A stretch of 64,000 bases of DNA, taken from an uncultured Pseudobdellovibrionaceae bacterium (lineage in GTDB: Bacteria; Pseudomonadota; Alphaproteobacteria; Micavibrionales; Micavibrionaceae). Positions 24,105 through 43,882 of the stretch are shown in pieces. The DNA is taken from positions 43,675-107,674 of the forward strand of contig CAZOVG010000006.1 of NCBI GenBank assembly GCA_964583335.1. The letters are read 5' to 3'. A model generated the notes under the pieces. It was not told where the DNA came from. It saw only the letters and a program-made list of their open reading frames with translations, and did no database searches. A program made the translations under genes and the position numbers. Each line of letters begins with the position of its first letter. Within the stretch, counting starts at the first letter, position 1.

Positions 24105-24620
24105 ATGGCTGACACCATCCACGTCATTTACGCCCGCAAACCCTGCGACTGGCATGAAATCGAAAGTGGGTCGCGCCGCGATTGCGGCACGGCCTATCCA
24201 ACCGAAATCATCGAAACCAAAGAAATGACCGCCGCCGAGTACGATGCCTTCATCGCCAAGCCTCTGGCCAGCCGCGAATGGCTGGCGGGCAAAGGCGGCT
24301 GGAAGAACAACAACGTGCGTTACGCCGTTGCGGTCACCGCGCCGGAGCGCGAAACCATCTACGTCGATCCGTCAGGCTCCGACTATGGCCGTTATGTTGG
24401 GCGGCGGGTTGACGACGCTGGCGTCGTCAAATTCCCCGACATCCGTGTCCGCCTGACGGGCAAGGACGGCAACGCCTTCAACATTATCGGCCTGTGCAAG
24501 CGCGCGGCGCAAAAGGGCGGGCTTTCCGACGGCGAAGTCAAAGCCTTCCTCGACGAAGCCACGGCGGGCGATTACAACCATCTGCTGGCAACGTGCCAAC
24601 GATGGTTCGATTGCTATTAA
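24105..24620 (+). CDS. Hypothetical protein (171 aa)
   Basis: RBS AGGAGG. The C-terminal about 55 aa (VRLTGKDGNAFNIIGLCKRAAQKGGLSDGEVKAFLDEATAGDYNHLLATCQRWF) resemble a small stand-alone phage domain. Confidence 0.55.
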   Translation: MADTIHVIYARKPCDWHEIESGSRRDCGTAYPTEIIETKEMTAAEYDAFIAKPLASREWLAGKGGWKNNNVRYAVAVTAPERETIYVDPSGSDYGRYVGRRVDDAGVVKFPDIRVRLTGKDGNAFNIIGLCKRAAQKGGLSDGEVKAFLDEATAGDYNHLLATCQRWFDCY

Positions 24621-25840
24621 GCAGCGACCAGCTCGGCCTTCTTGCCCGTAAATTCTTCCCAGCGTTTAACGATCACGTCGACGTATTTTGGGTCAAGCTC
24701 GATCATCCGGCATTGGCGGTTCAATTTTTCGCAAGCGATCAATGTGGTGCCGGAGCCGCCAAAGCAATCCAGCACGATGTCGCGGCTCTTGCTGCTGTTG
24801 TTGACAGCGCGTTCCACCAGCTCCACGGGCTTCATGGTGGGGTGCAGCTCGTTGCGCACAGGTTTGTTCACAAACCACACATCGCCTTGATCGCGCGCAC
24901 CGCACCAGTAATGATCGTTGCCTTGTTTCCAGCCGTAAAGGATCGGCTCGTATTGGCGCTGATAATCCGCGCGGCCAAGGGTGAAGGTATTTTTCGCCCA
25001 GATGACAAACGTCGACCATTTGCCGCCCGCCTCGATGAAGGCTTTTTGCAGCGTATGTAATTCGCTCGATGACATGCAGACGTAAAGCGCGCCTTTGCAA
25101 ACGGTCAGCATATTGACGCAAGCGTCGTAAAGGAACCGCTCGAAGCCGTCGCCGAGATTGTCATTCATGATGGTGCGGTTCGTGCCGCGCAGTTTGTCCT
25201 TGGCGGTGTTGCCGTAATCCACGTTGTAAGGCGGATCCGTGAACACCATATCCGCCAGCGCGCCGTCCAGCACCCGCTCGACGTTGGCCAGCACGGTGCT
25301 GTCGCCGCAGAGCAAAAGGTGGTTGCCCAGCCGCCAGAGGTCGCCAGGCTTGCTAACGGGCGTTTCCGGCGCTTCCGGCACGGCATCCTCGTCGGTCTGG
25401 CCTTCCGCCGTATTCGGCTCGGCCAGCAGGGCTGCCAGCTCGTCGTCGGAAAAACCGATGACGGGCAAGTCAAAATCTTCCGCTGCCAGCGCCGTCATTT
25501 CAGCGCGCAGCAAATCCTCATCCCATCCGGCATTGAGCGCCAGCTTGTTGTCGGCGATGACGTAGGCGCGCTTTTGCGCCTCGGTCAGATGATCCAGCAC
25601 GACGACGGGGACTTGCGCAAGGCCGAGTTGTTTTGCCGCCTGGAGGCGACCGTGGCCCGCGATAATGCCCGCCGCCGTGTCGACAAGGATCGGATTGAGA
25701 AAACCAAATTCGGCAATACTGGCCGCGATCTGGTTGACCTGTTCCGGCGAATGGGTGCGCGGGTTCTTGTCGTAAGGGACGAGCTTATCCGTTGGCCAGA
25801 CCTCGATGCGGTCGGCCATGCGTTTGTTTAAATCAGACAT
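24617..25840 (-). CDS. ParB-like nuclease domain fused to N6-adenine/N4-cytosine DNA methyltransferase
   Basis: The N-terminus has the ParB/Srx motif (PYDKNPRTHSPEQVNQIAASIAEFGFLNPILVD). The DPPY motif is FTDPPYNVDYG, and the C-terminal FGGSGTT is the AdoMet motif. Confidence 0.9.
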   Translation of the reverse strand: MSDLNKRMADRIEVWPTDKLVPYDKNPRTHSPEQVNQIAASIAEFGFLNPILVDTAAGIIAGHGRLQAAKQLGLAQVPVVVLDHLTEAQKRAYVIADNKLALNAGWDEDLLRAEMTALAAEDFDLPVIGFSDDELAALLAEPNTAEGQTDEDAVPEAPETPVSKPGDLWRLGNHLLLCGDSTVLANVERVLDGALADMVFTDPPYNVDYGNTAKDKLRGTNRTIMNDNLGDGFERFLYDACVNMLTVCKGALYVCMSSSELHTLQKAFIEAGGKWSTFVIWAKNTFTLGRADYQRQYEPILYGWKQGNDHYWCGARDQGDVWFVNKPVRNELHPTMKPVELVERAVNNSSKSRDIVLDCFGGSGTTLIACEKLNRQCRMIELDPKYVDVIVKRWEEFTGKKAELVAA

Positions 25841-35666: not shown

Positions 35667-36236
35667 TCAGTGCAGATATTTCTGGAGGTCGCGTGCGCCG
35701 AAATCGCGCCGGATCCGACCCATGGTTTCGTAAACCGTGGACGGATGACGGTCGTGGATTTTGCAGAGCGTTCGGATCGGCAAATCCTGCATCAGCATCA
35801 CGCAATAAAAGCGTGCGGCTTCCGGCAGGGCGCGGATCGCGTCGCTCACATCAATGACCAGCTCGGTTTGCCGCGCGTGGCCGTTCTGCCCGCCCCAGAT
35901 GCCCATGGATTCCGGAACGTCCTCGCGTTCGCCGTCCTCCAGCCAGGAATCCAGCGACGTGGCCTGGAAGCCGTTGTTGCGCTTCTCGGCTTTCGCGGCT
36001 TTGATCATCGCCGCGCATTTATGGCGCAGGATGCGGTCGACGAAGGTGTTGCGGCAGGATTTTTCGGGATCGAAGGCTTGGATCCGCGAGAGATAGTCGA
36101 GCATCAATTCCTGCTCGATGTCCTCGATCTCCATTCCGGCCATGGTATGGTGCCGGAGCATTTGACGGGAGTGATAACGGACTTGGGAAACGACATACGG
36201 ATCGATGCCGTTGTAACGGTTTTGGCTTTTGCTCAT
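35667..36236 (-). CDS. Phage-encoded sigma-70 family (ECF-like) sigma factor
   Basis: 189 aa from the ATG at 36236. The region-4 HTH is LPEAARFYCVMLMQDLPIRTLCKIHDRHPSTVYETMGRIRRDF, and a region-2-like segment is upstream. Confidence 0.7.
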   Translation of the reverse strand: MSKSQNRYNGIDPYVVSQVRYHSRQMLRHHTMAGMEIEDIEQELMLDYLSRIQAFDPEKSCRNTFVDRILRHKCAAMIKAAKAEKRNNGFQATSLDSWLEDGEREDVPESMGIWGGQNGHARQTELVIDVSDAIRALPEAARFYCVMLMQDLPIRTLCKIHDRHPSTVYETMGRIRRDFGARDLQKYLH

Positions 36237-36340
36237 TGTTTTCGCCTTTGTTTCGCATTGGCGGCCACGCACGGGCCGGACAAAGGGACTGGCGAAAACT
36301 CACTGGCAGGCTGGGTCTGCGGGCTTTTTCAGCCCGCCTG

Positions 36341-36370
36341 AAAAGCAAAAAGCCGCCTGTAAGGGCGGCT
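36341..36370 (-). terminator. Rho-independent terminator after the recombinase operon
   Basis: Stem agccgcc/ggcggct with a 6-nt loop, followed on the minus strand by ttttgctttt. A second hairpin (gcgggct/agcccgc) is at 36319..36337. Confidence 0.55.
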
Positions 36371-36443
36371 TTGGGGATGAAAAATTTTTTGATTTTTTTT
36401 CAGGGTATCCGGTGAAAATTCACCGAACGGAACAGCCGATCCG

Positions 36444-36857
36444 TCAGGCAGTCAGGCCGAAATAGCGACGCTGTGCCTGCCAGTCATCCGGAAAGGGCTT
36501 GAGCATCTCGGATAGCTTCAAGGTCTTGGGCTGCCTGCCGTCTAAAATCATTTCCTTAATGTCAGGTGCCAGCAAGTTGAGCCGGATGATGCGGGAAACG
36601 TAGGACGGGTTGATCTCATTATCGGCGGCAAGCTGGTCGATATTCTTGACCTTGCCCGTTTCCAGCCATTGCCGCCATTTGTGGGCGCGCGCCAGGGCTT
36701 TGAGCAGCGTGTCATCCTTGCGCGACGGTGCGTTGAACGGCGCGTCACCCTCGGTGGGCGGGACGATCATATAGCGTCGCCCGAATTTGCGGGTGAAATT
36801 CACCGGAACGCTGATAACGATGGCGGTGCCGTCGAGAGAAATCATGGCCTTGTTCAT
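36444..36857 (-). CDS. Recombinase-associated small DNA-binding protein
   Basis: 137 aa with an ATGA overlap with the recombinase stop. NPSYVSRIIRLNLLAPDIKEMILDGRQP is a motif seen beside large serine recombinases (from memory). Confidence 0.6.
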   Translation of the reverse strand: MNKAMISLDGTAIVISVPVNFTRKFGRRYMIVPPTEGDAPFNAPSRKDDTLLKALARAHKWRQWLETGKVKNIDQLAADNEINPSYVSRIIRLNLLAPDIKEMILDGRQPKTLKLSEMLKPFPDDWQAQRRYFGLTA

Positions 36858-38200
36858 GCTGCCTCCTTGATTTTATGGACGTTTTCAATGTCGCGGATCA
36901 GGCTGTTCAAGCCCTCGGCATGGACGTGGATGTCGATGCGGTCGGCGTTGACGATGATCTTTTCGATCAGCAGCCTCAAAAGCCGCGCCTGTTCCAGCGG
37001 GAACAATTCGTCCCAGATCAAATGCATGTTCTGCAGCGCGTCGCGCACCTGTTGTTCGGTGATGGTGTGATCTTCCTTGATGACCTCGCGCCAGACCCGC
37101 ACCATCATTTCCGGCGTACAGATCGCAAAGCGGATTTGATTGAGGACGATGTTCTCCAGCTCTCCGGCGGGGACAGAGCCGATGGGGCAGCCCTCGCATT
37201 CGTTCTTCAAATGTGCGCTGGGTTTGTAATAGCGATAAAGCCTGCCGTTGGGTTTTTTGGAATGGGTCGGCGTCATGGTGGACTGGCAACCGCCGCACAC
37301 GCACAATCCCTGCAACAATGCTGTTGACATGCCGCGCGTCCGGATTTGGCGCTTGCGCGGATTTTCCTTCGTGACCGCGCGCACCTTTTCCCAGAGGGCG
37401 TGAGAGATAATAGGCTTGTGCTGGCCTGGATAGTTGTTACCGAGGTGGGTAATCTCGCCAAGGTAGGTGCGGTTGTTCAGCACCTTGTAAAGAAAACCCT
37501 TGGTGATTGTGTTGCCGCCGCGTGGCTTGCCATTCTGGCTGATCCAGCTTTTTGTGCGGTATCCCTGATCGCGTAATTCCTTCGCCAGCAGCGTCATCGA
37601 TTGAAGGATCGTGAAACGCTCGAAAATCAGCCGGACAAGTTCGGATTCTTTTTCGTTGATTACCAGCTTCTTGTCTTTCGTGTCGTAGCCTAGCGGCGTG
37701 ATGCCGCCCATCCACATACCCTTGCGCTTCGTCGCGGCAACCTTGTCGCGGATGCGCTCACCAATAACTTCGCGCTCGAATTGGGCGAAGGACAAAAGGA
37801 TGTTGAGCGTCAGCCGCCCCATGGACGTTGTTGTATTGAATTGCTGGGTGACGGAAACGAAGCTGACGTTGTGCTTGTCGAAAAGCTCGATCATCTTGGC
37901 AAAGTCGGACAGCGACCGCGACAGGCGGTCGACTTTGTAAACGACAACCACATCGATCAGACCTTTTTCAACATCCTGCATGAGTTTTTTGAGCGCGGGG
38001 CGTTCCATGCTGCCGCCGGAAAAACCGCCATCATCATAATAGTCCGGCACCAGCGTCCAGCCTTCATGCCGTTGCGACGTGATATAGGATTCTCCGGCCT
38101 CGCGCTGGGCGTCGAGGCTGTTGAATTCCATGTCGAGACCTTCTTCTGTGGACTTGCGTGTGTAAATCGCGCAGCGAGTTCTTTTCTTTGGCTCCGTCAT
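36854..38200 (-). CDS. Large serine recombinase (integrase)
   Basis: ATG at 38200. The resolvase catalytic domain has CAIYTRKSTEEG (Ser), VVVYKVDRLSRS and the LSFAQFERE motif. The recombinase and zinc-ribbon regions include CGGCQ. Confidence 0.9.
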   Translation of the reverse strand: MTEPKKRTRCAIYTRKSTEEGLDMEFNSLDAQREAGESYITSQRHEGWTLVPDYYDDGGFSGGSMERPALKKLMQDVEKGLIDVVVVYKVDRLSRSLSDFAKMIELFDKHNVSFVSVTQQFNTTTSMGRLTLNILLSFAQFEREVIGERIRDKVAATKRKGMWMGGITPLGYDTKDKKLVINEKESELVRLIFERFTILQSMTLLAKELRDQGYRTKSWISQNGKPRGGNTITKGFLYKVLNNRTYLGEITHLGNNYPGQHKPIISHALWEKVRAVTKENPRKRQIRTRGMSTALLQGLCVCGGCQSTMTPTHSKKPNGRLYRYYKPSAHLKNECEGCPIGSVPAGELENIVLNQIRFAICTPEMMVRVWREVIKEDHTITEQQVRDALQNMHLIWDELFPLEQARLLRLLIEKIIVNADRIDIHVHAEGLNSLIRDIENVHKIKEAA

Positions 38201-38649
38201 TCCTTGCCCTCCTTGTTTCTGCGTACCAGGCCGAAGAAAGTGGGGCCTGACCAATTCGTGCCTGTGATTTCACGCGCGATGTGCGACAAGCTCCTGTAAT
38301 GCGCGCCGTTATATTCAAAGCCGTTGTCGAGGACGGTGACGCGGTGTTCGATGCCGTTGTGGATGCGCACGAGCTTCGTTCCTGCAACGGGCATGTGGAT
38401 GCCTTTGCCGCGCGGCTTGCGCAGATTTTCCGAAAGGCTTTCCTTCGCGTATTGCTCAAGGCGTTTTTCGATAATTCCGCTATCGATGCCGTGCGCGATT
38501 TCCTGCAGGCGGTAGGCCAGGCGTTTGACCAGATAGGGTTTGTTATATTTCGGGGCTTTGGCCTGAAAAACCTCCTCCCACATTGCCACCAGCTCTGCCA
38601 TGGGCATCTGCGGCAGGGCGGCGACCCTTACTAAGACATTGTTTTGCAT
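38197..38649 (-). CDS. DUF2924-family protein
   Basis: LPQMPMAELVAMWEEVFQAKAPKYNKPYLVKRLAYRLQE is typical of DUF2924. It has an ATGA overlap with the recombinase start. Confidence 0.7.
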   Translation of the reverse strand: MQNNVLVRVAALPQMPMAELVAMWEEVFQAKAPKYNKPYLVKRLAYRLQEIAHGIDSGIIEKRLEQYAKESLSENLRKPRGKGIHMPVAGTKLVRIHNGIEHRVTVLDNGFEYNGAHYRSLSHIAREITGTNWSGPTFFGLVRRNKEGKE

Positions 38650-38834
38650 TAGTTATTTTGCTCCTTTCGCTTTTGCCCATGAATGCTTCCTGCCGCCTCT
38701 AAGTCCAGCGAATAGTCTCTCATGTCCTTGGTTTTCAGCTTTTGATGGCGACGAACGACGCCACGGGCGAGGATCAGCGCCATTTCCGCCATACGCTCGT
38801 GTGCAGACATCGCATTAGGGTCTAGTCCATTCAT
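38649..38834 (-). CDS. Small hypothetical protein (61 aa), first gene of recombinase operon
   Basis: Its stop overlaps the DUF2924 ATG by 1 nt. Confidence 0.45.
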   Translation of the reverse strand: MNGLDPNAMSAHERMAEMALILARGVVRRHQKLKTKDMRDYSLDLEAAGSIHGQKRKEQNN

Positions 38835-38904
38835 CGCAACCTCCGTACTGTTGGTGGGGGTTACATACGGCAGGCATAGGGGAAGTGTCGGGATAAGTAC
38901 GGGA

Positions 38905-38936
38905 TTGACAGCGATTATCCTTGAAATAAGATAATC
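38905..38936 (+). promoter_or_regulatory. Candidate sigma-70 promoter (TTGACA-N16-TAAGAT) overlapped by inverted repeat GATTATC-N10-GATAATC
   Basis: TTGACA is at 38905..38910. The inverted-repeat arms are at 38913..38919 and 38930..38936. It lies in the divergent region between the recombinase operon and the repressor gene. Confidence 0.3.
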
Positions 38937-39024
38937 GAGCCTAATAAAAATAAGGGAACAACTAAGGGAGATTCGCGCAGGCGAAAATCCCCGACACGAT
39001 GATCAAAGCAAAGAGAATGGAAGA

Positions 39025-39711
39025 ATGAAAAGCGCCACTAAAAAACTTCCCAGCACCGGAAACCTCACGCCCGCCCAAGAGACGGCGTTGCGCGCCATCA
39101 CCGTGTTCATGGATCGTCGTGGTGTTGCACCGACGGTGCAGGAGTTGGCGGATGCTCTTTCGATCCAGCCGCCCAGCGCGCACGAGCTTGTGCGCCGTCT
39201 GGAGGACAAGGGATACATTCAGCGTGAGGCTCGCAAAGCACGCACGATGATGGTGGTGAAAGACTTCACACCGCGCGTGCGTCAAATGATCGGCGTTCCT
39301 GTTCTTGGCAGGGTTGCCGCAGGCACGCCGATTCTCGCCATCGAAAACAAGGTCGGTGAAATCATGGTCGATGCCATGATCGCGCGCGGCAACTGCTTCG
39401 CCCTGGAAGTCAGCGGCGACAGCATGATCGATGTGGATATCAACGACGGCGACTACGTCGTCGTTCGACAACAGAAACTTGCGGAATCGGGGGACATCGT
39501 CGTGGCCATGCGCGACGGCGAAGCCACGGTGAAGCGGTTGTTCATCGCGGATCACCGCATAGAATTGAGGCCCGAAAACAAGAGACTGAAGCCTATCGTC
39601 ATCAGCCACGATGATGACTTTGCCATTCTTGGGAAAGTCGTCACCGTTTGTTCCAGAGCCGATCCCATCAATCAAACAGAGGAGGCTCAGGATGGCGACT
39701 TACAGTCTTAG
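39025..39711 (+). CDS. LexA-family repressor (LexA winged-helix N-domain + S24 autopeptidase)
   Basis: LTPAQETALRAITVFMDRRGVAPTVQELADAL (LexA DNA-binding domain), the cleavage-site-like VAAG, catalytic Ser GDSM and Lys ATVKRL are all present. Confidence 0.85.
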   Translation: MKSATKKLPSTGNLTPAQETALRAITVFMDRRGVAPTVQELADALSIQPPSAHELVRRLEDKGYIQREARKARTMMVVKDFTPRVRQMIGVPVLGRVAAGTPILAIENKVGEIMVDAMIARGNCFALEVSGDSMIDVDINDGDYVVVRQQKLAESGDIVVAMRDGEATVKRLFIADHRIELRPENKRLKPIVISHDDDFAILGKVVTVCSRADPINQTEEAQDGDLQS

Positions 39712-40906
39712 AAAATTTGCGCAACCGGATGTTTTGAAAAACATCCACGAGGATAACCTTTTGCGGTTCCTTTCCCCGTACACCGACTATTTGACGGGCC
39801 GCGGGTTCAAGCTGCAAAAAAACGGCAGCGGTCAGCTTGATTACGGGCTGCTCTGCCAGATTCTGATGCAGCCGACCGAGGGCATCCCGCCAGCGATGGT
39901 GGATGCCCTTTATTTTGTGCAGGAAGTTTCTGACGACGATATGTTTGACGAGCTGCTGGAAATGGCCAACGCGGGCAATGTTGACGTGCCTGCCGATTCC
40001 ACGCCTGCCGATCTTGCCGTGCTGCTGTGGCTCAAGGATCCGGAGCTGATCAAAAAGCCGCATGCCGAAGCGCTGATGATGAAGCCCAAGAGCTTCAACA
40101 GCTTCCAGTCCAAGGAAAACAAAGGCAAGAAGCTCGACCTTTCCGAAGGCAACGTCGATGCGCTGGAACGCGACATGGATGAATGGTTCGAGCAGAACAA
40201 GCGCGGCAACGGCTGCGAGGTCACGCCGTTTGAAATGGCGGGCGAGAATAAAATCTACTTTCTCGTGCGCCACGGCATGCCGTTCAAGCGTGAAGGCAAG
40301 ATCGAAGCTGGCGAAACGGGCAGCGTGTTCTACCGTCCTGAATTTCATGACGTCATCGTTTATGACCGCGACGCCAACGAGCTTCAGATTTACAACAAGT
40401 CCGGCGGCAAAAAGGAACGCCAGATGTATCTGGCCGCCTTCGGCCTGCGCTTCTTCGGTGATGCAGAATATTTCCCCGAAGAAGATAAATACACCCTGCA
40501 GCCGCTTCTCAATGACGGGCCGGATTCCCTCAGTTGCCACGATATCGCTGGCCTTGAAGAAATCCGGCTGACGGAGGTGCAGTTGCAGTTCAGGGGGCCG
40601 TATAACGACCGTTCGATCTTCCGCTCGAAAGACCTGTTTTCGTCGTTGCAGGATCGCAGCAAGGATTTGCCAAGGTTCGGCAACCTGGTCGCGGCCAGTT
40701 TCCAGGTAAAATTCGAGAACAGCTCCAAGCCGCGCACGATCAAAATCAAAACACCGAACGTCGCCAGCTTCGATCGCAAGGAAGATGCCCATGTCATCGA
40801 ACAATGGATGAAGGCACGCGGCTTTATTAAACGGCAGGAACCGCCTGCACTTGAAGAAAGACCCTCTGATCATGTTGTTGAGCAGGCCGCCGTGGCATAC
40901 GCTTAG
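39692..40906 (+). CDS. Orphan protein A (404 aa), translationally coupled to repressor
   Basis: ATG at 39692 preceded by GAGGAGG; it overlaps the repressor gene by 20 nt. No P-loop or nuclease motif is seen. Confidence 0.65.
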   Translation: MATYSLRKFAQPDVLKNIHEDNLLRFLSPYTDYLTGRGFKLQKNGSGQLDYGLLCQILMQPTEGIPPAMVDALYFVQEVSDDDMFDELLEMANAGNVDVPADSTPADLAVLLWLKDPELIKKPHAEALMMKPKSFNSFQSKENKGKKLDLSEGNVDALERDMDEWFEQNKRGNGCEVTPFEMAGENKIYFLVRHGMPFKREGKIEAGETGSVFYRPEFHDVIVYDRDANELQIYNKSGGKKERQMYLAAFGLRFFGDAEYFPEEDKYTLQPLLNDGPDSLSCHDIAGLEEIRLTEVQLQFRGPYNDRSIFRSKDLFSSLQDRSKDLPRFGNLVAASFQVKFENSSKPRTIKIKTPNVASFDRKEDAHVIEQWMKARGFIKRQEPPALEERPSDHVVEQAAVAYA

Positions 40907-41930
40907 TCAGTTTTCCGGCGCGCGCGGCGTTAAGGCGGACTGGTCTGGATTCCCCGAATATCTGCTGAAACCAACTCAGCAGCTTGCGGAAACATATCCG
41001 TGCGCAGGAAAATGCGGCGGATACATGGATGTTGTCCGGCATGGCGATGGTCAATATGTCGGCGTCTGTTCCTGCGGCTGTGGCAAGCGCGTGTTGCAGA
41101 AAACCGATCTCATCATTTATCGCCCAGATTTTACGACCATCTTTTCCGGCCTTGCGCAGGCGTTTGGTATCAGCGGCGCGGCTCATGCCGAGATCGACGG
41201 CCTTCCGGCCTGCTGGCAGATCGGCGAATATAACCCCGCCGCCAGTTATCGCTTTCCTGTGGTGACGTTGATCGAGGCGCAGGCCAGCAAGATCGAGCGC
41301 GTTCTCGGCCAGCTTGTGGCCAGATTCCAAAAACCCTTCTTTCTTTTGTTGCCCTCGGCATCCGCCGTGACGCAGTCGGTGCAGGACGTAGCGCTGCGGA
41401 ACGCAGCCAAGGTGTTCGCCTATGAAGATTTGATCGAATTGACCAACAACGCCATCCAGGTCAGGGGCAATGCGGCCAGCCTGCTGTCCGATCTTTCCGC
41501 TGGCTGGATCAAGCACATTGACGGTGCGCCTGGAGAGACGCGCTACCCGACACCCGCAGGCGCGAAGTGGGAAGATTTTGTTCTAGAATTCACCGCCGAC
41601 GAGATGATCACCGTTTCCTGCAAGGGCCAAGGCCACAAGCAGTTCAGCGCGGAAGACCTTCAAATGCGCGACAAGCGCACGAAGAAGCCGAAGCAGGCGT
41701 GGACGTTCCTGCAGGCCATGGCGGCGGCGAACGGCAATATGTCGGTCAGTGATATCGACAAGGTCAAAAAGACCAAGCAGGAAGTTTCAGCCAATCTCCA
41801 GCGCGTGTTCCAGCTTCCCGACGACGACCCGATTGAGTGGTCAGGAGAGGACACGGCCTACAAAGCTAAATTCCTCATGCGTGGCGGAGAGAAATTGACC
41901 CTGTCGAGCGCGCGCAAACGGACGGCTTAG
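40872..41930 (+). CDS. Orphan protein B (~352 aa) with Cys-rich zinc-finger-like segment
   Basis: It overlaps gene A by 35 nt (56 nt if the TTG at 40851 is used). The Cys cluster is CAGKCGG...VCSCGCG, and the C-terminal region is Lys-rich. Confidence 0.6.
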   Translation: MLLSRPPWHTLSQFSGARGVKADWSGFPEYLLKPTQQLAETYPCAGKCGGYMDVVRHGDGQYVGVCSCGCGKRVLQKTDLIIYRPDFTTIFSGLAQAFGISGAAHAEIDGLPACWQIGEYNPAASYRFPVVTLIEAQASKIERVLGQLVARFQKPFFLLLPSASAVTQSVQDVALRNAAKVFAYEDLIELTNNAIQVRGNAASLLSDLSAGWIKHIDGAPGETRYPTPAGAKWEDFVLEFTADEMITVSCKGQGHKQFSAEDLQMRDKRTKKPKQAWTFLQAMAAANGNMSVSDIDKVKKTKQEVSANLQRVFQLPDDDPIEWSGEDTAYKAKFLMRGGEKLTLSSARKRTA

Positions 41931-42700
41931 GCCGCTTTGTCAGCCTGCACGGCCAAGCCGATCACATGGTGAACCAGGAATGCGTCGATCAATGACAGGG
42001 CATAGTCCTTGCTGATCGGCAGCATATCTTCCGTCAGCATGGTATCGACGTAATCCTTCGCGTCCCAAAGTTTGCGGGTCTGCTCCGGATTGTTCGGCTC
42101 GATCCGCTCCATGACAGATTCAAAAACGCTGTTCGCTGTTTTTACGAATTCCGCATGATCCGCCTTGCTCAACGGCAGCGACGTGATCTGCGGCCCTGGA
42201 TCGGCCTTTGGCGCTGGCCGAGGGGCTTCGCTTCTCGTTGCATGAGGCGTGTTTTTGTCTATGCGGTAATCTCCGAAGGGGCTGTGATGCCCGTCCACAT
42301 TCACGAAGACCTGTTTAAATATTTCTATTCTGGCTTCGGCATCAAAGGTGGTGTTGTTATCGAATTCCGCGCCGGAGATATACATGTCCCAATCTTCCAG
42401 GTGGATTTTATGCTGGTTATCCCACAGCAGTTTTGTAAGCTCCAATTCTGCATCGGAGGCTTTTAATATATCTGCCCATTTTTCAAAGCCGAGCATCAGC
42501 GCAAAAAGATGCTGCGCCTTCATCAAGCTGAAATCTTCTTCGTCCCAATCGTACTCTAGGAAAATGCGTTCGATATCGAAGTATTTGGGAGCGTATGTAT
42601 AGTAGGAATTACCATCCACTTTATCGATGTAGGACGTTTGGGTTTTGTAATCCCTGAACAGGTTTTTGGCTTGGAGTTTGAAATAGTCTACGGGCGTCAT
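41927..42700 (-). CDS. Hypothetical protein (257 aa), AT-rich cargo
   Basis: ATG at 42700 with AAGGA upstream. Its stop codon overlaps the stop of the convergent gene B. Confidence 0.55.
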   Translation of the reverse strand: MTPVDYFKLQAKNLFRDYKTQTSYIDKVDGNSYYTYAPKYFDIERIFLEYDWDEEDFSLMKAQHLFALMLGFEKWADILKASDAELELTKLLWDNQHKIHLEDWDMYISGAEFDNNTTFDAEARIEIFKQVFVNVDGHHSPFGDYRIDKNTPHATRSEAPRPAPKADPGPQITSLPLSKADHAEFVKTANSVFESVMERIEPNNPEQTRKLWDAKDYVDTMLTEDMLPISKDYALSLIDAFLVHHVIGLAVQADKAA

Positions 42701-42892
42701 GATACAATCCTTATGTTGCCCAAATTTATTATCTAGATAGTCGCGTTCGTAATCTGAGGTCAGATAATAAACTTGGATAAGGTTGTATTATCGATCTGTT
42801 GGCCGATGAAATCTTTGCACGAACGAGCAGGCTCACCAACAAGCACGCCCAAATCATAGCCAAGGTGCCATCTGAAAACAAGGCACAACGGG

Positions 42893-43228
42893 CTATTTTT
42901 CCCCGACCAGTTTGATCTCCAAGCCGTCGCAACGGACGATCAGGTTGTTGGTTTTCGGATCCAGCGCCAGCTCGGCGAATTCGGCCTTGGGCAGTTTTTG
43001 CAGCGTGACATAAAGATGCTGGCTGCCGATTTTGAAAGTCTCGCGGCATCCGCATTTGACCTGGATGACATTGCTCTGGGTCGGGGCGTCGACCACGAGG
43101 AAATTCGGGTGGAATTCTAAGATTGTGTGCTTTTCGATATGGCCTTTGACACCCTTGGGCATGCGCTTCATTTTCGGCGCGGCGGTGGTTTTAAGAAATT
43201 CTGCCAAGGGGACTTTAATAAACTGCAT
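42893..43228 (-). CDS. Hypothetical protein (111 aa), AT-rich cargo
   Basis: ATG at 43228; the ORF track begins one codon earlier at a TTG. Confidence 0.45.
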   Translation of the reverse strand: MQFIKVPLAEFLKTTAAPKMKRMPKGVKGHIEKHTILEFHPNFLVVDAPTQSNVIQVKCGCRETFKIGSQHLYVTLQKLPKAEFAELALDPKTNNLIVRCDGLEIKLVGEK

Positions 43229-43542
43229 CAATGCTACCGCTTAAATTTTTTACCATGATACATGATTTCTCTTTCATTCTGGAGGGGCTTCTTAAAACCG
43301 CGCTAGGCAAAATGCAAAAAACCGCCGTCGCGTAAACCCTTGAAACCTATTGACCGAAACCTGTGAACATGACGGCAATCGGTACGGAGGTTTCTGAGAG
43401 AAAAGGCCCGTAGAGAGAGAAACAGGCCGAATTTTCGCCGCCACGGCTAAAACCATGTCAGGAGCTTTTCGCGGAACACGTTGCGGGAGTTGGGGTTTTT
43501 CCGGCGGCCCTCAAAAAGATAGAGGGTCGGTTTTTAAGATAA

Positions 43543-43632
<90 letters not shown>

Positions 43633-43882
43633 TTGCGCGGCGGTCCGTTTATCACGGACGGACGTCTGTTCGATTTAAAAGCCCCCAATTTCTAACGATT
43701 TTTATGCGGCCCTGTCCAGTGGTAAACGACAGAGTGGGCCGGGGGCGGCGGATTTTGTCTCAAGGCCTGTGGGTTCATTGCGGAAGGCGGCGGATTTCGC
43801 TTGTCCGGGCCGGGCGGCCTCATTATCTTTGCCCTATGTCGCTTTGTCCGAATCTTATAGGCTTTAGGGGTCCTGCATCCGT

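What the first reader, a model, noticed from the sequence alone, without database searches (positions are those of the whole stretch)
39025..41930. LexA-family repressor translationally coupled to two orphan genes: a cI-rexAB-like lysogeny operon of unknown function
A complete LexA-type repressor (winged-helix N-domain, GDSM Ser, VKRL Lys) is followed on the same strand by a 404-aa gene and a ~352-aa gene. Each overlaps the previous gene (by 20 nt and 35 nt), implying co-transcription and coupled translation with the repressor during lysogeny. This matches the architecture of lambda cI-rexA-rexB and other prophage-encoded exclusion or defence modules. Neither protein shows a P-loop, a nuclease triad or any motif I can name. 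Protein B has a CxxxC...CxCxC cluster and a Lys-rich C-terminal region suggestive of nucleic-acid binding. GC content appears lower than in the phage structural genes. This is my best candidate in the window for an undescribed prophage-borne system such as defence or superinfection exclusion.
Basis: partly seen in the sequence, partly recalled or inferred. Interest (0 to 1): 0.72.

Follow-up and report, generated by a model that had tools for sequence, protein, structure and literature searches.

The report
Repressor-linked DNA-binding gene pair in prophage
A prophage LexA-type repressor is co-transcribed with two conserved, uncharacterised genes that recur beside the lysogeny-control genes of temperate phages from many bacterial phyla; the first has the DNA-binding fold reported for lambda RexA and RdgC, so the pair is probably an unrecognised part of the lysis/lysogeny control region, not a one-off defence cargo.

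Summary
R (39025-39711) is a LexA-type self-cleaving repressor. A (39692-40906) and B (40872-41930) follow with 20- and 35-nt overlaps.

A and B are not orphans. A's superfamily has 2,380 clusters at 50% identity, across many phyla. A and B were adjacent in about 160 of 168 loci, their overlap is conserved, and two natural A-B fusions exist.

A's model (pLDDT 85) matches RdgC and CENP-N/CENP-L. This is the same fold class published for lambda RexA. There is no sequence similarity to RexA (DUF4747) or RdgC. B is soluble and basic, with a Cys/His cluster and no significant structural match, so it is not RexB-like.

A's divergence tracks B, R and a phage sigma factor (r = 0.79-0.87) but not the adjacent serine-integrase cassette (r = 0.23). 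The sigma gene lies directly after B in 88 loci. A few relatives carry unrelated pairs with DNA-binding-type domains in the same slot. No known defence family matches.

Best reading (about 0.42): A-B is a DNA-binding complex of the immunity and early-control module, derepressed when R is cleaved. It resembles cI-rexA in position and in A's fold. A defence role is untested and somewhat less likely. The actual function remains unknown.

The parts
38905..38932 (+). Promoter-like site (TTGACA-16-TAAGAT) for the R-A-B operon, in the 190-nt divergent intergenic region
   Evidence: 10 of 12 consensus matches. It is the only promoter-like site in 38600-43700. This is a consensus match only, not evidence of function.
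38912..38937 (.). Perfect palindrome CGATTATC-N10-GATAATCG overlapping the promoter; candidate operator of R
   Evidence: a single copy in the 64-kb window; other loci each carry one clade-specific palindrome 20-160 nt upstream of R. Binding by R is inferred, not shown.
39025..39711 (+). R: LexA-type (winged-helix plus S24) self-cleaving repressor
   Evidence: TIGR00498 177.7 bits against a cut-off of 110.95. AAG, GDSM and VKRL motifs are present. Of 90 R homologues, 85 keep G[DENQ]SM.
39692..40906 (+). A: 404-aa protein with an acidic N-terminal helical domain and an RdgC/CENP-N-like alpha/beta body
   Evidence: AF2 pLDDT 85, pTM 0.77. Foldseek: RdgC 2owl E 3.6e-4, prob 1.0; CENP-N, CENP-L and Chl4 follow. 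2,380 family representatives. RBS GAGGAGG lies inside R.
40872..41930 (+). B: 352-aa basic soluble protein with an N-terminal Cys/His cluster, a central alpha/beta domain and a basic C-terminal domain
   Evidence: AF2 pLDDT 87. No significant fold match in PDB or BFVD. pI 8.6 and no TM segment. Always next to A. Fused to A in P0262 and P0308.
38649..38834 (-). P61: small conserved first gene of the divergent integrase cassette
   Evidence: Found in 184 loci by jackhmmer. No library hit.
38197..38649 (-). DUF2924 protein of the integrase cassette
   Evidence: Pfam PF11149 1.8e-44.
36854..38254 (-). Large serine recombinase (integrase)
   Evidence: Pfam Resolvase, Recombinase and Zn_ribbon_recom.
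36444..36857 (-). P137: conserved last gene of the integrase cassette
   Evidence: phrog_14161 7e-37. Present in 180 loci.
36349..36372 (-). Terminator-like hairpin separating the integrase cassette from the sigma-factor gene
   Evidence: 9-bp stem with 6 G-C pairs, followed by a T-rich tail.
35667..36272 (-). Phage sigma factor heading the early/replication operon; co-evolves with A-B
   Evidence: phrog_1740 1.2e-12. Weak Sigma70_r2 hit. Directly downstream of B in 88 other loci. Distance correlation with A r = 0.79.

Best explanation
R-A-B is the repressor arm of the lysogeny-control region of a temperate prophage. That region consists of R, A-B, a phage sigma factor and a serine-integrase cassette.

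Inferred mechanism:
- R is a LexA-type autocleavable repressor. It binds the single palindrome that overlaps its own promoter in the divergent intergenic region.
- R, A and B are made from one transcript with coupled translation, so A and B are present at a low autoregulated level in the lysogen.
- A and B rise sharply when RecA-stimulated self-cleavage removes R.
- A has an RdgC/RexA-class DNA-binding fold. B is a basic partner with a Cys/His cluster and a possible C-terminal winged helix. Together they form one complex that binds DNA.
- The complex acts at the lysogeny-to-lysis transition, tuning the repressor/sigma-factor switch. Lambda RexA does something comparable when it biases the lambda switch towards lysis.

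Shown here:
- the gene structure and overlaps;
- R's family membership and catalytic motifs;
- A's fold class;
- the A-B linkage and fusions;
- the co-evolution with R and the sigma factor.

Inferred only: operator binding, the expression pattern, complex formation, DNA binding, and the effect on the switch.
For: - A-B linkage: adjacent in 161 of 168 loci.
- Overlap: conserved in 147 of 161 loci.
- Fusions: two independent natural fusions, one confirmed at hhalign probability 100% and sitting in the same genomic context.
- R-A spacing: -40 to +69 nt in 76 of 77 loci. A strong RBS for A lies inside R.
- Operator: one palindrome per locus, always upstream of R.
- A's fold: RdgC, CENP-N and CENP-L. 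These are the relatives reported for RexA, a non-specific DNA binder that biases the lambda switch (PMC11077077).
- B's properties: basic, pI 8.6. A B-superfamily member gives weak winged-helix hits in its C-terminal part.
- Co-evolution: pairwise distances of A correlate with B (0.87), R (0.85) and sigma (0.79), but not with the integrase (0.23).
- Sigma factor: directly downstream of B in 88 loci, and present in 149 of 208 A+ loci against 9 of 40 A- loci.
- Reverse test: nearly all R relatives at 46% identity or more carry A downstream.
- Slot replacements: in rare relatives the R--sigma slot holds unrelated pairs with DNA-binding-type domains, namely a SAP-domain protein plus an Rrf2-like winged helix with a Cys cluster, or a weak HTH.
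- Distant variant: an A2/B2 pair sits beside an XRE-HTH plus M78 protease pair (ImmR/ImmA type), a different repressor system.
Against: - There are no expression data. If the palindrome is not R's operator, or a terminator follows R, the co-regulation argument weakens.
- The fold match is modest (TM 0.33-0.42, RMSD 10-13 A). RexA itself was not among the 50 Foldseek hits shown.
- There is no sequence link to RexA or RdgC.
- A is acidic overall (pI 5.2), which is not what one expects of a DNA binder taken alone.
- One relative (L268) has R followed directly by sigma with no A-B, so the pair is dispensable for the basic layout.
- About half of the closest integrase-cassette relatives lack A.
- The correlation with R and sigma could simply reflect vertical inheritance of neighbouring genes.
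- The Pfam hits on the slot replacements are mostly below the curated cut-offs.
Confidence: 0.42

Rival explanations
1. Rex-like exclusion or defence module. A-B is expressed with the repressor in the lysogen. A senses incoming phage DNA or replication intermediates. B, acting as a soluble effector in place of the membrane protein RexB, aborts or blocks the infection.
For: - Same position and co-transcription with the repressor as rexAB.
- A shares the RexA/RdgC fold class.
- Rex-like pairs in actinophages are lysogen-expressed defences (PMC6426596).
- A-B is dispensable in some relatives.
- The neighbourhood of the integrase cassette in A-less phages carries varied cargo, including a Fic protein and a 1,764-aa HATPase_c/NOV_C protein.
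Against: - No PADLOC hit for A or B.
- B has no TM segment and no conserved catalytic motif.
- In the loci sampled, A-B co-evolves with R and the sigma factor instead of being patchy.
- Alternative cargo in the exact slot carries DNA-binding-type domains, not known defence genes.
- In many loci A-B heads the early operon directly before the sigma factor, with no repressor upstream.
Confidence: 0.25
2. Early DNA-metabolism function. A-B acts on phage or host DNA at induction, for example as an RdgC-like modulator of RecA (setting the induction threshold or protecting phage DNA) or as an origin-binding replication initiator.
For: - RdgC inhibits RecA strand exchange and RecA-dependent LexA cleavage (PMC11077077, section 19), and here the partner gene is a LexA-type repressor.
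- In many loci A-B lies upstream of, and co-directional with, the replication genes.
- A's strongly conserved polar motifs (RHGxPxxRE, YRPExHD) suggest more than non-specific binding.
Against: - In the window, A-B is on the opposite arm from the replication genes and is coupled to the repressor.
- These phages already encode helicase, primase and AAA_24 modules.
- The distant A2/B2 variant accompanies an ImmR/ImmA-type switch, which need not use RecA-mediated cleavage.
- One relative lacks A-B altogether.
Confidence: 0.13
3. Recombination directionality factor (excision helper) for the adjacent large serine integrase.
For: A-B lies next to the P61-DUF2924-integrase-P137 cassette in three different arrangements. 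It would be induced when R is cleaved, which is when excision is needed.
Against: - A's divergence does not track the integrase (Pearson 0.23, Spearman -0.02).
- About half of the closest integrase relatives lack A.
- P61, DUF2924 and P137 are invariably linked to the integrase and are better candidates.
Confidence: 0.04

Closest known systems
Lambda cI-rexA-rexB immunity operon, and the Rex-like pairs of actinophages Sbash, CarolAnn and Toast
   Same: - An S24 self-cleaving repressor is followed on the same strand by two co-transcribed genes.
- The first gene product belongs to the RdgC/Iml3/Chl4 fold class reported for RexA.
- RexA is a DNA-binding dimer that also biases the lysis/lysogeny switch (PMC11077077).
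   Different: - No sequence similarity: hhalign probability 0.4%, and no hit to the DUF4747 domain that RexA and Sbash gp30 carry.
- A is larger and has an extra acidic N-terminal helical domain.
- The second protein is a 352-aa soluble basic protein with a Cys/His cluster, not a four-TM membrane protein.
- The repressor has a LexA winged helix, not a cI HTH.
- The module is tied to a phage sigma factor.
E. coli RdgC (PF04381; PDB 2owl), a ring-shaped DNA-binding protein that restrains RecA
   Same: It is the best structural match to A: Foldseek E 3.6e-4, probability 1.0, over 338 aligned columns. RdgC is functionally linked to LexA cleavage (PMC11077077).
   Different: - TM-score is only 0.33-0.42.
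- No sequence or profile similarity.
- A has an added N-terminal domain and an obligate partner B.
- A is phage-borne.
LexA (TIGR00498) and LexA-controlled operons
   Same: R scores above the LexA equivalog cut-off and has the cleavage site and the Ser/Lys dyad. A palindrome overlaps its own promoter, as in autoregulated lexA.
   Different: - R is encoded in a prophage, next to an integrase.
- The palindrome differs between clades and occurs once per locus.
- The downstream genes are not known SOS genes.
ImmR/ImmA-type switches (XRE repressor plus M78 protease) of ICEBs1 and some phages
   Same: The distant A2/B2 variant sits beside such a pair and an integrase cassette. This suggests A-B-type pairs accompany cleavable-repressor switches of more than one kind.
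   Different: This system is not present in the window. There, A2/B2 are divergent from the repressor rather than downstream of it.

Membership tests
Lambda Rex exclusion system (RexA/RexB) | RexA-family protein (Pfam DUF4747; sequence homology to lambda RexA) | tested here: not met
   No Pfam hit for A or for 45 family members even at E<=5. hhalign of the A profile against lambda RexA gives probability 0.4%. DUF4747 in RexA and Sbash gp30 is taken from PMC6426596.
Lambda Rex exclusion system (RexA/RexB) | RexA two-domain fold related to RdgC and Iml3/Chl4 | tested here: inconclusive
   The A model matches RdgC (E 3.6e-4, prob 1.0, TM 0.33-0.42) and CENP-N, CENP-L and Chl4. RexA itself was not among the 50 hits shown, and no direct superposition was possible.
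Lambda Rex exclusion system (RexA/RexB) | RexB: small partner with four transmembrane helices | tested here: not met
   B is 352 aa. Its maximum 19-residue Kyte-Doolittle hydropathy is 1.09, its pI is 8.6, and it is predicted to be globular.
Lambda Rex exclusion system (RexA/RexB) | Located directly downstream of, and co-transcribed with, the prophage repressor | tested here: met
   Overlaps of 20 and 35 nt, with an RBS for A inside R. R-A distance is -40 to +69 nt in 76 of 77 loci. Co-transcription is inferred from this layout.
Lambda Rex exclusion system (RexA/RexB) | Excludes superinfecting phages | not testable with these tools
   Needs plating and abortive-infection assays.
RdgC family (PF04381) | Sequence membership | tested here: not met
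   No Pfam hit. hhalign against E. coli RdgC gives probability 0.1%.
LexA / S24 self-cleaving repressors (applies to R) | LexA winged-helix domain, S24 domain, Ala-Gly site, Ser/Lys dyad, score above the equivalog cut-off | tested here: met
LexA / S24 self-cleaving repressors (applies to R) | RecA-stimulated autocleavage and binding to its own operator | not testable with these tools
   Only a candidate palindromic operator overlapping a promoter-like site was found.
Known anti-phage defence systems (PADLOC-DB v2.0) | Match to any defence protein model | tested here: not met
   A has no hit. B has one sub-threshold hit, PD_DExK at E 0.0054 over 32 residues.
Serine-integrase recombination directionality factors | Co-inheritance and co-evolution with the cognate integrase | tested here: not met
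   A against integrase distances: r = 0.23, Spearman -0.02. About half of the closest integrase relatives lack A.

The most novel reading that the evidence does not exclude
A-B is a previously unknown core component of a repressor/sigma-factor genetic switch used by a very large, cross-phylum and almost entirely uncultured group of temperate phages. In this reading, an RdgC-like DNA-encircling protein and its winged-helix/Zn partner couple cleavage of a LexA-type repressor to activation or restraint of a phage sigma factor. It could act, for example, as a DNA-loaded co-activator or as a threshold-setting inhibitor. That would be a new class of lysis/lysogeny decision protein, not a defence gene.
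Probability: 0.2. Interest if true: 0.8.

Novelty: new variant of a known kind. Interest (0 to 1): 0.62.

Why it matters
The pair is one of the more widespread uncharacterised gene couples in temperate-phage control regions. A's superfamily has 2,380 clusters at 50% identity, in Alphaproteobacteria, Acidobacteriota, Planctomycetota, Desulfobacterota, Nitrospirota, Armatimonadota, Bacteroidota and others. No cultured phage or plasmid in the collections searched carries it.

It extends the RexA/RdgC fold class to a new family, with a different partner and a link to a phage sigma factor.

If it modulates the switch, it defines a new part of how many environmental prophages decide between lysogeny and lysis, and how they read DNA damage. 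If it is a defence, it is a new soluble Rex-type system.

Either way it provides a sharp marker for the lysogeny modules of these phages, and a tractable two-protein target for experiments.

Tried and rejected
- Known-family assignment. Pfam, PHROGs, NCBIfam and PADLOC gave nothing for A or B. Scanning 45 A and 31 B homologues at E<=5 gave only scattered noise. Profile searches against PDB sequences gave nothing.
- B's fold. Foldseek against PDB and BFVD gave no hit at E<=0.001. The weak hits were retroviral integrase, RPB5, Mrr and MmcB-like proteins. No acidic or lysine residues are conserved in B's central domain, so a nuclease or DDE enzyme was rejected.
- Sequence link of A to lambda RexA or E. 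coli RdgC by hhalign: none.
- Cultured phages and plasmids: no tblastn match for A in phages or plasmids, or for B in phages.
- R regulon. I looked for further copies of the R-promoter palindrome in the window (up to 3 mismatches) and in other loci, including upstream of the sigma gene. None were found, so no wider regulon could be defined.
- att repeats near tRNA-Ser: none of 14 nt or more within the window. The left prophage end is probably outside the window.
- Integrase RDF hypothesis: rejected because A does not co-evolve with the integrase.
- Defence-hotspot argument. Alternative cargo in the R--sigma slot gave no PADLOC hits.
- Literature. Searches on DUF2924, RdgC-like and RexA-like terms found no description of this pair.
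Full report
OBSERVATION.
- R (39025-39711, 228 aa) matches Peptidase_S24 (3.6e-33) and LexA_DNA_bind (6.3e-13). It passes the NCBIfam LexA equivalog cut-off, 177.7 against 110.95 bits. Its sequence carries the Ala-Gly site (VAAG), the catalytic Ser (GDSM) and the catalytic Lys (VKRL).
- A starts at 39692. Its N-terminus MATYSLRKF matches the family consensus. It overlaps R by 20 nt, and a GAGGAGG ribosome-binding site lies 7 nt upstream, inside R.
- B starts at 40872, or at a TTG at 40851, and overlaps A by at least 35 nt.
- B's Cys cluster is real. C44, H57 and C66 are nearly invariant across phyla.
- The GC claim is marginal: 0.561 for R-A-B against 0.581 for the phage body.

SETTING. The window holds a prophage.
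- Terminase gpA, a lambda-type portal and a replication module (AAA_25, helicase, PD-(D/E)XK, AAA_24) lie on the minus strand from about 36.3 kb downwards.
- Next to them sits a four-gene integrase cassette on the minus strand: a 61-aa protein (P61), DUF2924, a large serine recombinase, and a 137-aa protein (P137; phrog_14161).
- A terminator-like hairpin separates this cassette from a phage sigma-factor gene at 35667-36272 (phrog_1740, 1.2e-12).
- R-A-B is transcribed divergently from the cassette.
- The 190-nt intergenic region has one promoter-like site, TTGACA-16-TAAGAT. It is overlapped by a perfect palindrome, CGATTATC-N10-GATAATCG, which is unique in the window.
- Beyond B lie two low-GC ORFs and then tRNA-Ser.

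A AND B ARE A WIDESPREAD, OBLIGATE PAIR.
- A has 301 homologues at 90% clustering. Its profile finds 2,380 representatives at 50% clustering, 767 of them below 1e-30.
- It occurs in 170 GTDB species genomes spanning many phyla and in at least 87 IMG/VR contigs. It matches no cultured phage or plasmid record.
- B diverges faster, at about 25% identity between phyla, but is clearly homologous.
- In 168 loci, jackhmmer found A in all 168 and B next to it in 161.
- In 147 of 161 loci, B's first aligned residue lies before A's stop codon. The usual overlap is 30-40 nt.
- Two representatives, P0262 and P0308, are natural A-B fusions. For P0308, the B profile aligns at probability 100% to residues 383-734. 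That gene sits in the usual context.
- Taken together, these results argue for one complex.

STRUCTURES.
- A models well: pLDDT 85, pTM 0.77. It has an acidic helical N-terminal domain (pI 4.4) and two alpha/beta domains.
- Foldseek against the PDB gives E. coli RdgC first (E 3.6e-4, probability 1.0, TM 0.33-0.42). CENP-N, CENP-L and Chl4 follow.
- This is the same set of relatives that Adams et al. reported for the lambda RexA crystal structure. Their paper also shows that RexA and its actinophage homologues are dimeric, non-specific DNA binders, and it notes that RexA biases the lambda switch towards lysis (PMC11077077).
- The resemblance is at fold level only. hhalign of the A profile gives probability 0.4% against RexA and 0.1% against RdgC. 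A lacks DUF4747, the Pfam domain shared by RexA and Sbash gp30.
- B also models well, at pLDDT 87, but has no significant match in PDB or BFVD.
- B is soluble and basic, and its central domain has no conserved catalytic residues.
- A diverged B-superfamily member gives weak winged-helix hits in its C-terminal part.

WHAT A-B TRAVELS WITH.
- R lies directly upstream in about 45% of loci, at a distance of -40 to +69 nt.
- The integrase cassette is adjacent in most loci, in three different arrangements.
- The sigma factor lies directly downstream of B (57-700 nt) in 88 loci. It is present in 149 of 208 A+ loci against 9 of 40 A- loci.
- Pairwise distances of A correlate with B (r = 0.87), R (0.85) and sigma (0.79), but not with the integrase (0.23; Spearman -0.02).
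- On this evidence A-B belongs to the repressor/sigma regulatory module, and the integrase cassette is exchanged independently.
- About half of the closest integrase relatives lack A.
- In the reverse direction, almost every R relative at 46% identity or more has A downstream. R relatives below 40% identity have none of these genes.
- Exceptions are informative. L268 has R followed directly by sigma. L269, L279 and L280 carry unrelated genes in the same slot.
- Those unrelated genes have no PADLOC hits. They include a SAP-domain protein, an Rrf2-like winged helix with a Cys cluster, and a weak HTH. Most of these Pfam hits are below the curated cut-offs.
- A distant A2/B2 variant exists. B2 aligns to B at hhalign probability 92% and lacks the Cys cluster. 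It sits beside an XRE repressor plus M78 protease pair.

REGULATION (INFERRED).
- Each locus has a single, clade-specific palindrome 20-160 nt upstream of R. None was found before the sigma gene.
- A LexA-type repressor with an operator over its own promoter should autorepress.
- A and B would then be made at a low level in the lysogen and derepressed when R is cleaved.

INTERPRETATION.
- The best-supported reading is that A-B is a DNA-binding complex belonging to the immunity and early-control module. It is analogous to cI-rexA in position and in A's fold, and it acts at the lysogeny-to-lysis transition. Confidence is about 0.42.
- A Rex-like defence remains possible, at about 0.25. It is disfavoured by the non-membrane partner, the absence of defence-model hits, the co-evolution with R and sigma in the loci sampled, and the nature of the slot replacements.
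- A RecA-modulating or replication role is less likely, at about 0.13.
- An excision-factor role is unlikely, at about 0.04.
- The module fails the membership tests for the Rex family: there is no DUF4747 and no RexB-type partner. I therefore file it as a new variant of the repressor-linked accessory-pair theme, not as a Rex member.
- Its actual function remains unknown, and everything beyond anatomy and distribution is inference.

Noticed in passing
window 36444-38834 (- strand); also about 190 other loci: A four-gene integrase cassette (61-aa protein, DUF2924, large serine recombinase, ~137-aa phrog_14161 protein) is conserved almost intact across phyla. It evolves independently of the neighbouring regulatory genes. 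The roles of the three small partners are unknown; one may be the excision factor.
   Followed up: partly
window 35667-36272 (-): A phage-encoded sigma factor (phrog_1740) heads the early/replication operon. In 88 other loci it lies directly downstream of B. This suggests a repressor/sigma-factor switch in this phage group.
   Followed up: partly
window 41927-42700 (-) and 42893-43231 (-): Two low-GC ORFs (0.49) of 257 and 112 aa lie between B and tRNA-Ser and have no family hits. The 257-aa protein occurs in only 3 of the loci examined, which is typical of variable cargo at a prophage end. Its stop codon overlaps B's by 4 nt in convergent orientation.
   Followed up: partly
window 43543-43632 (-): tRNA-Ser(tga) lies at the apparent right end of the prophage. 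No att-type repeat of 14 nt or more was found within the window, so the left end is probably outside it.
   Followed up: partly
L207, L210, L221, L174, L235, L241 (IMG/VR contigs): A distant A2/B2 variant pair (395 aa plus about 315 aa; B2 lacks the Cys cluster) is divergent from an XRE-HTH plus M78 (ImmR/ImmA-like) pair that precedes the same integrase cassette.
   Followed up: partly
P0262, P0308; L252 6001-8211: Natural single-polypeptide A-B fusions of 727 and 736 aa. In L252 the fusion sits between the DUF2924/integrase pair and the sigma factor.
   Followed up: yes
L268, L269, L279, L280: The slot between R and the sigma factor is empty in L268. In the others it holds unrelated genes: 423+393 aa with no hits, a SAP-domain protein plus an Rrf2-like protein, and a 327-aa protein with a weak HTH.
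   Followed up: partly
window 24617-25840 (-): A ParB_N-N6/N4 DNA methyltransferase fusion lies in the phage body. The same fusion recurs in related prophages (L087, L252).
   Followed up: no
L085 11151-13406: In one genome the B gene is truncated by IS elements (rve and IS1595 transposases), leaving an integrase cassette-R-A remnant with no phage genes within 10 kb.
   Followed up: no
P0153 (278 aa): A B fragment 98% identical to the window's B is joined to a PF13191 (AAA_16) region on a 7.4-kb contig. This is possibly a chimeric assembly or a rearrangement.
   Followed up: no
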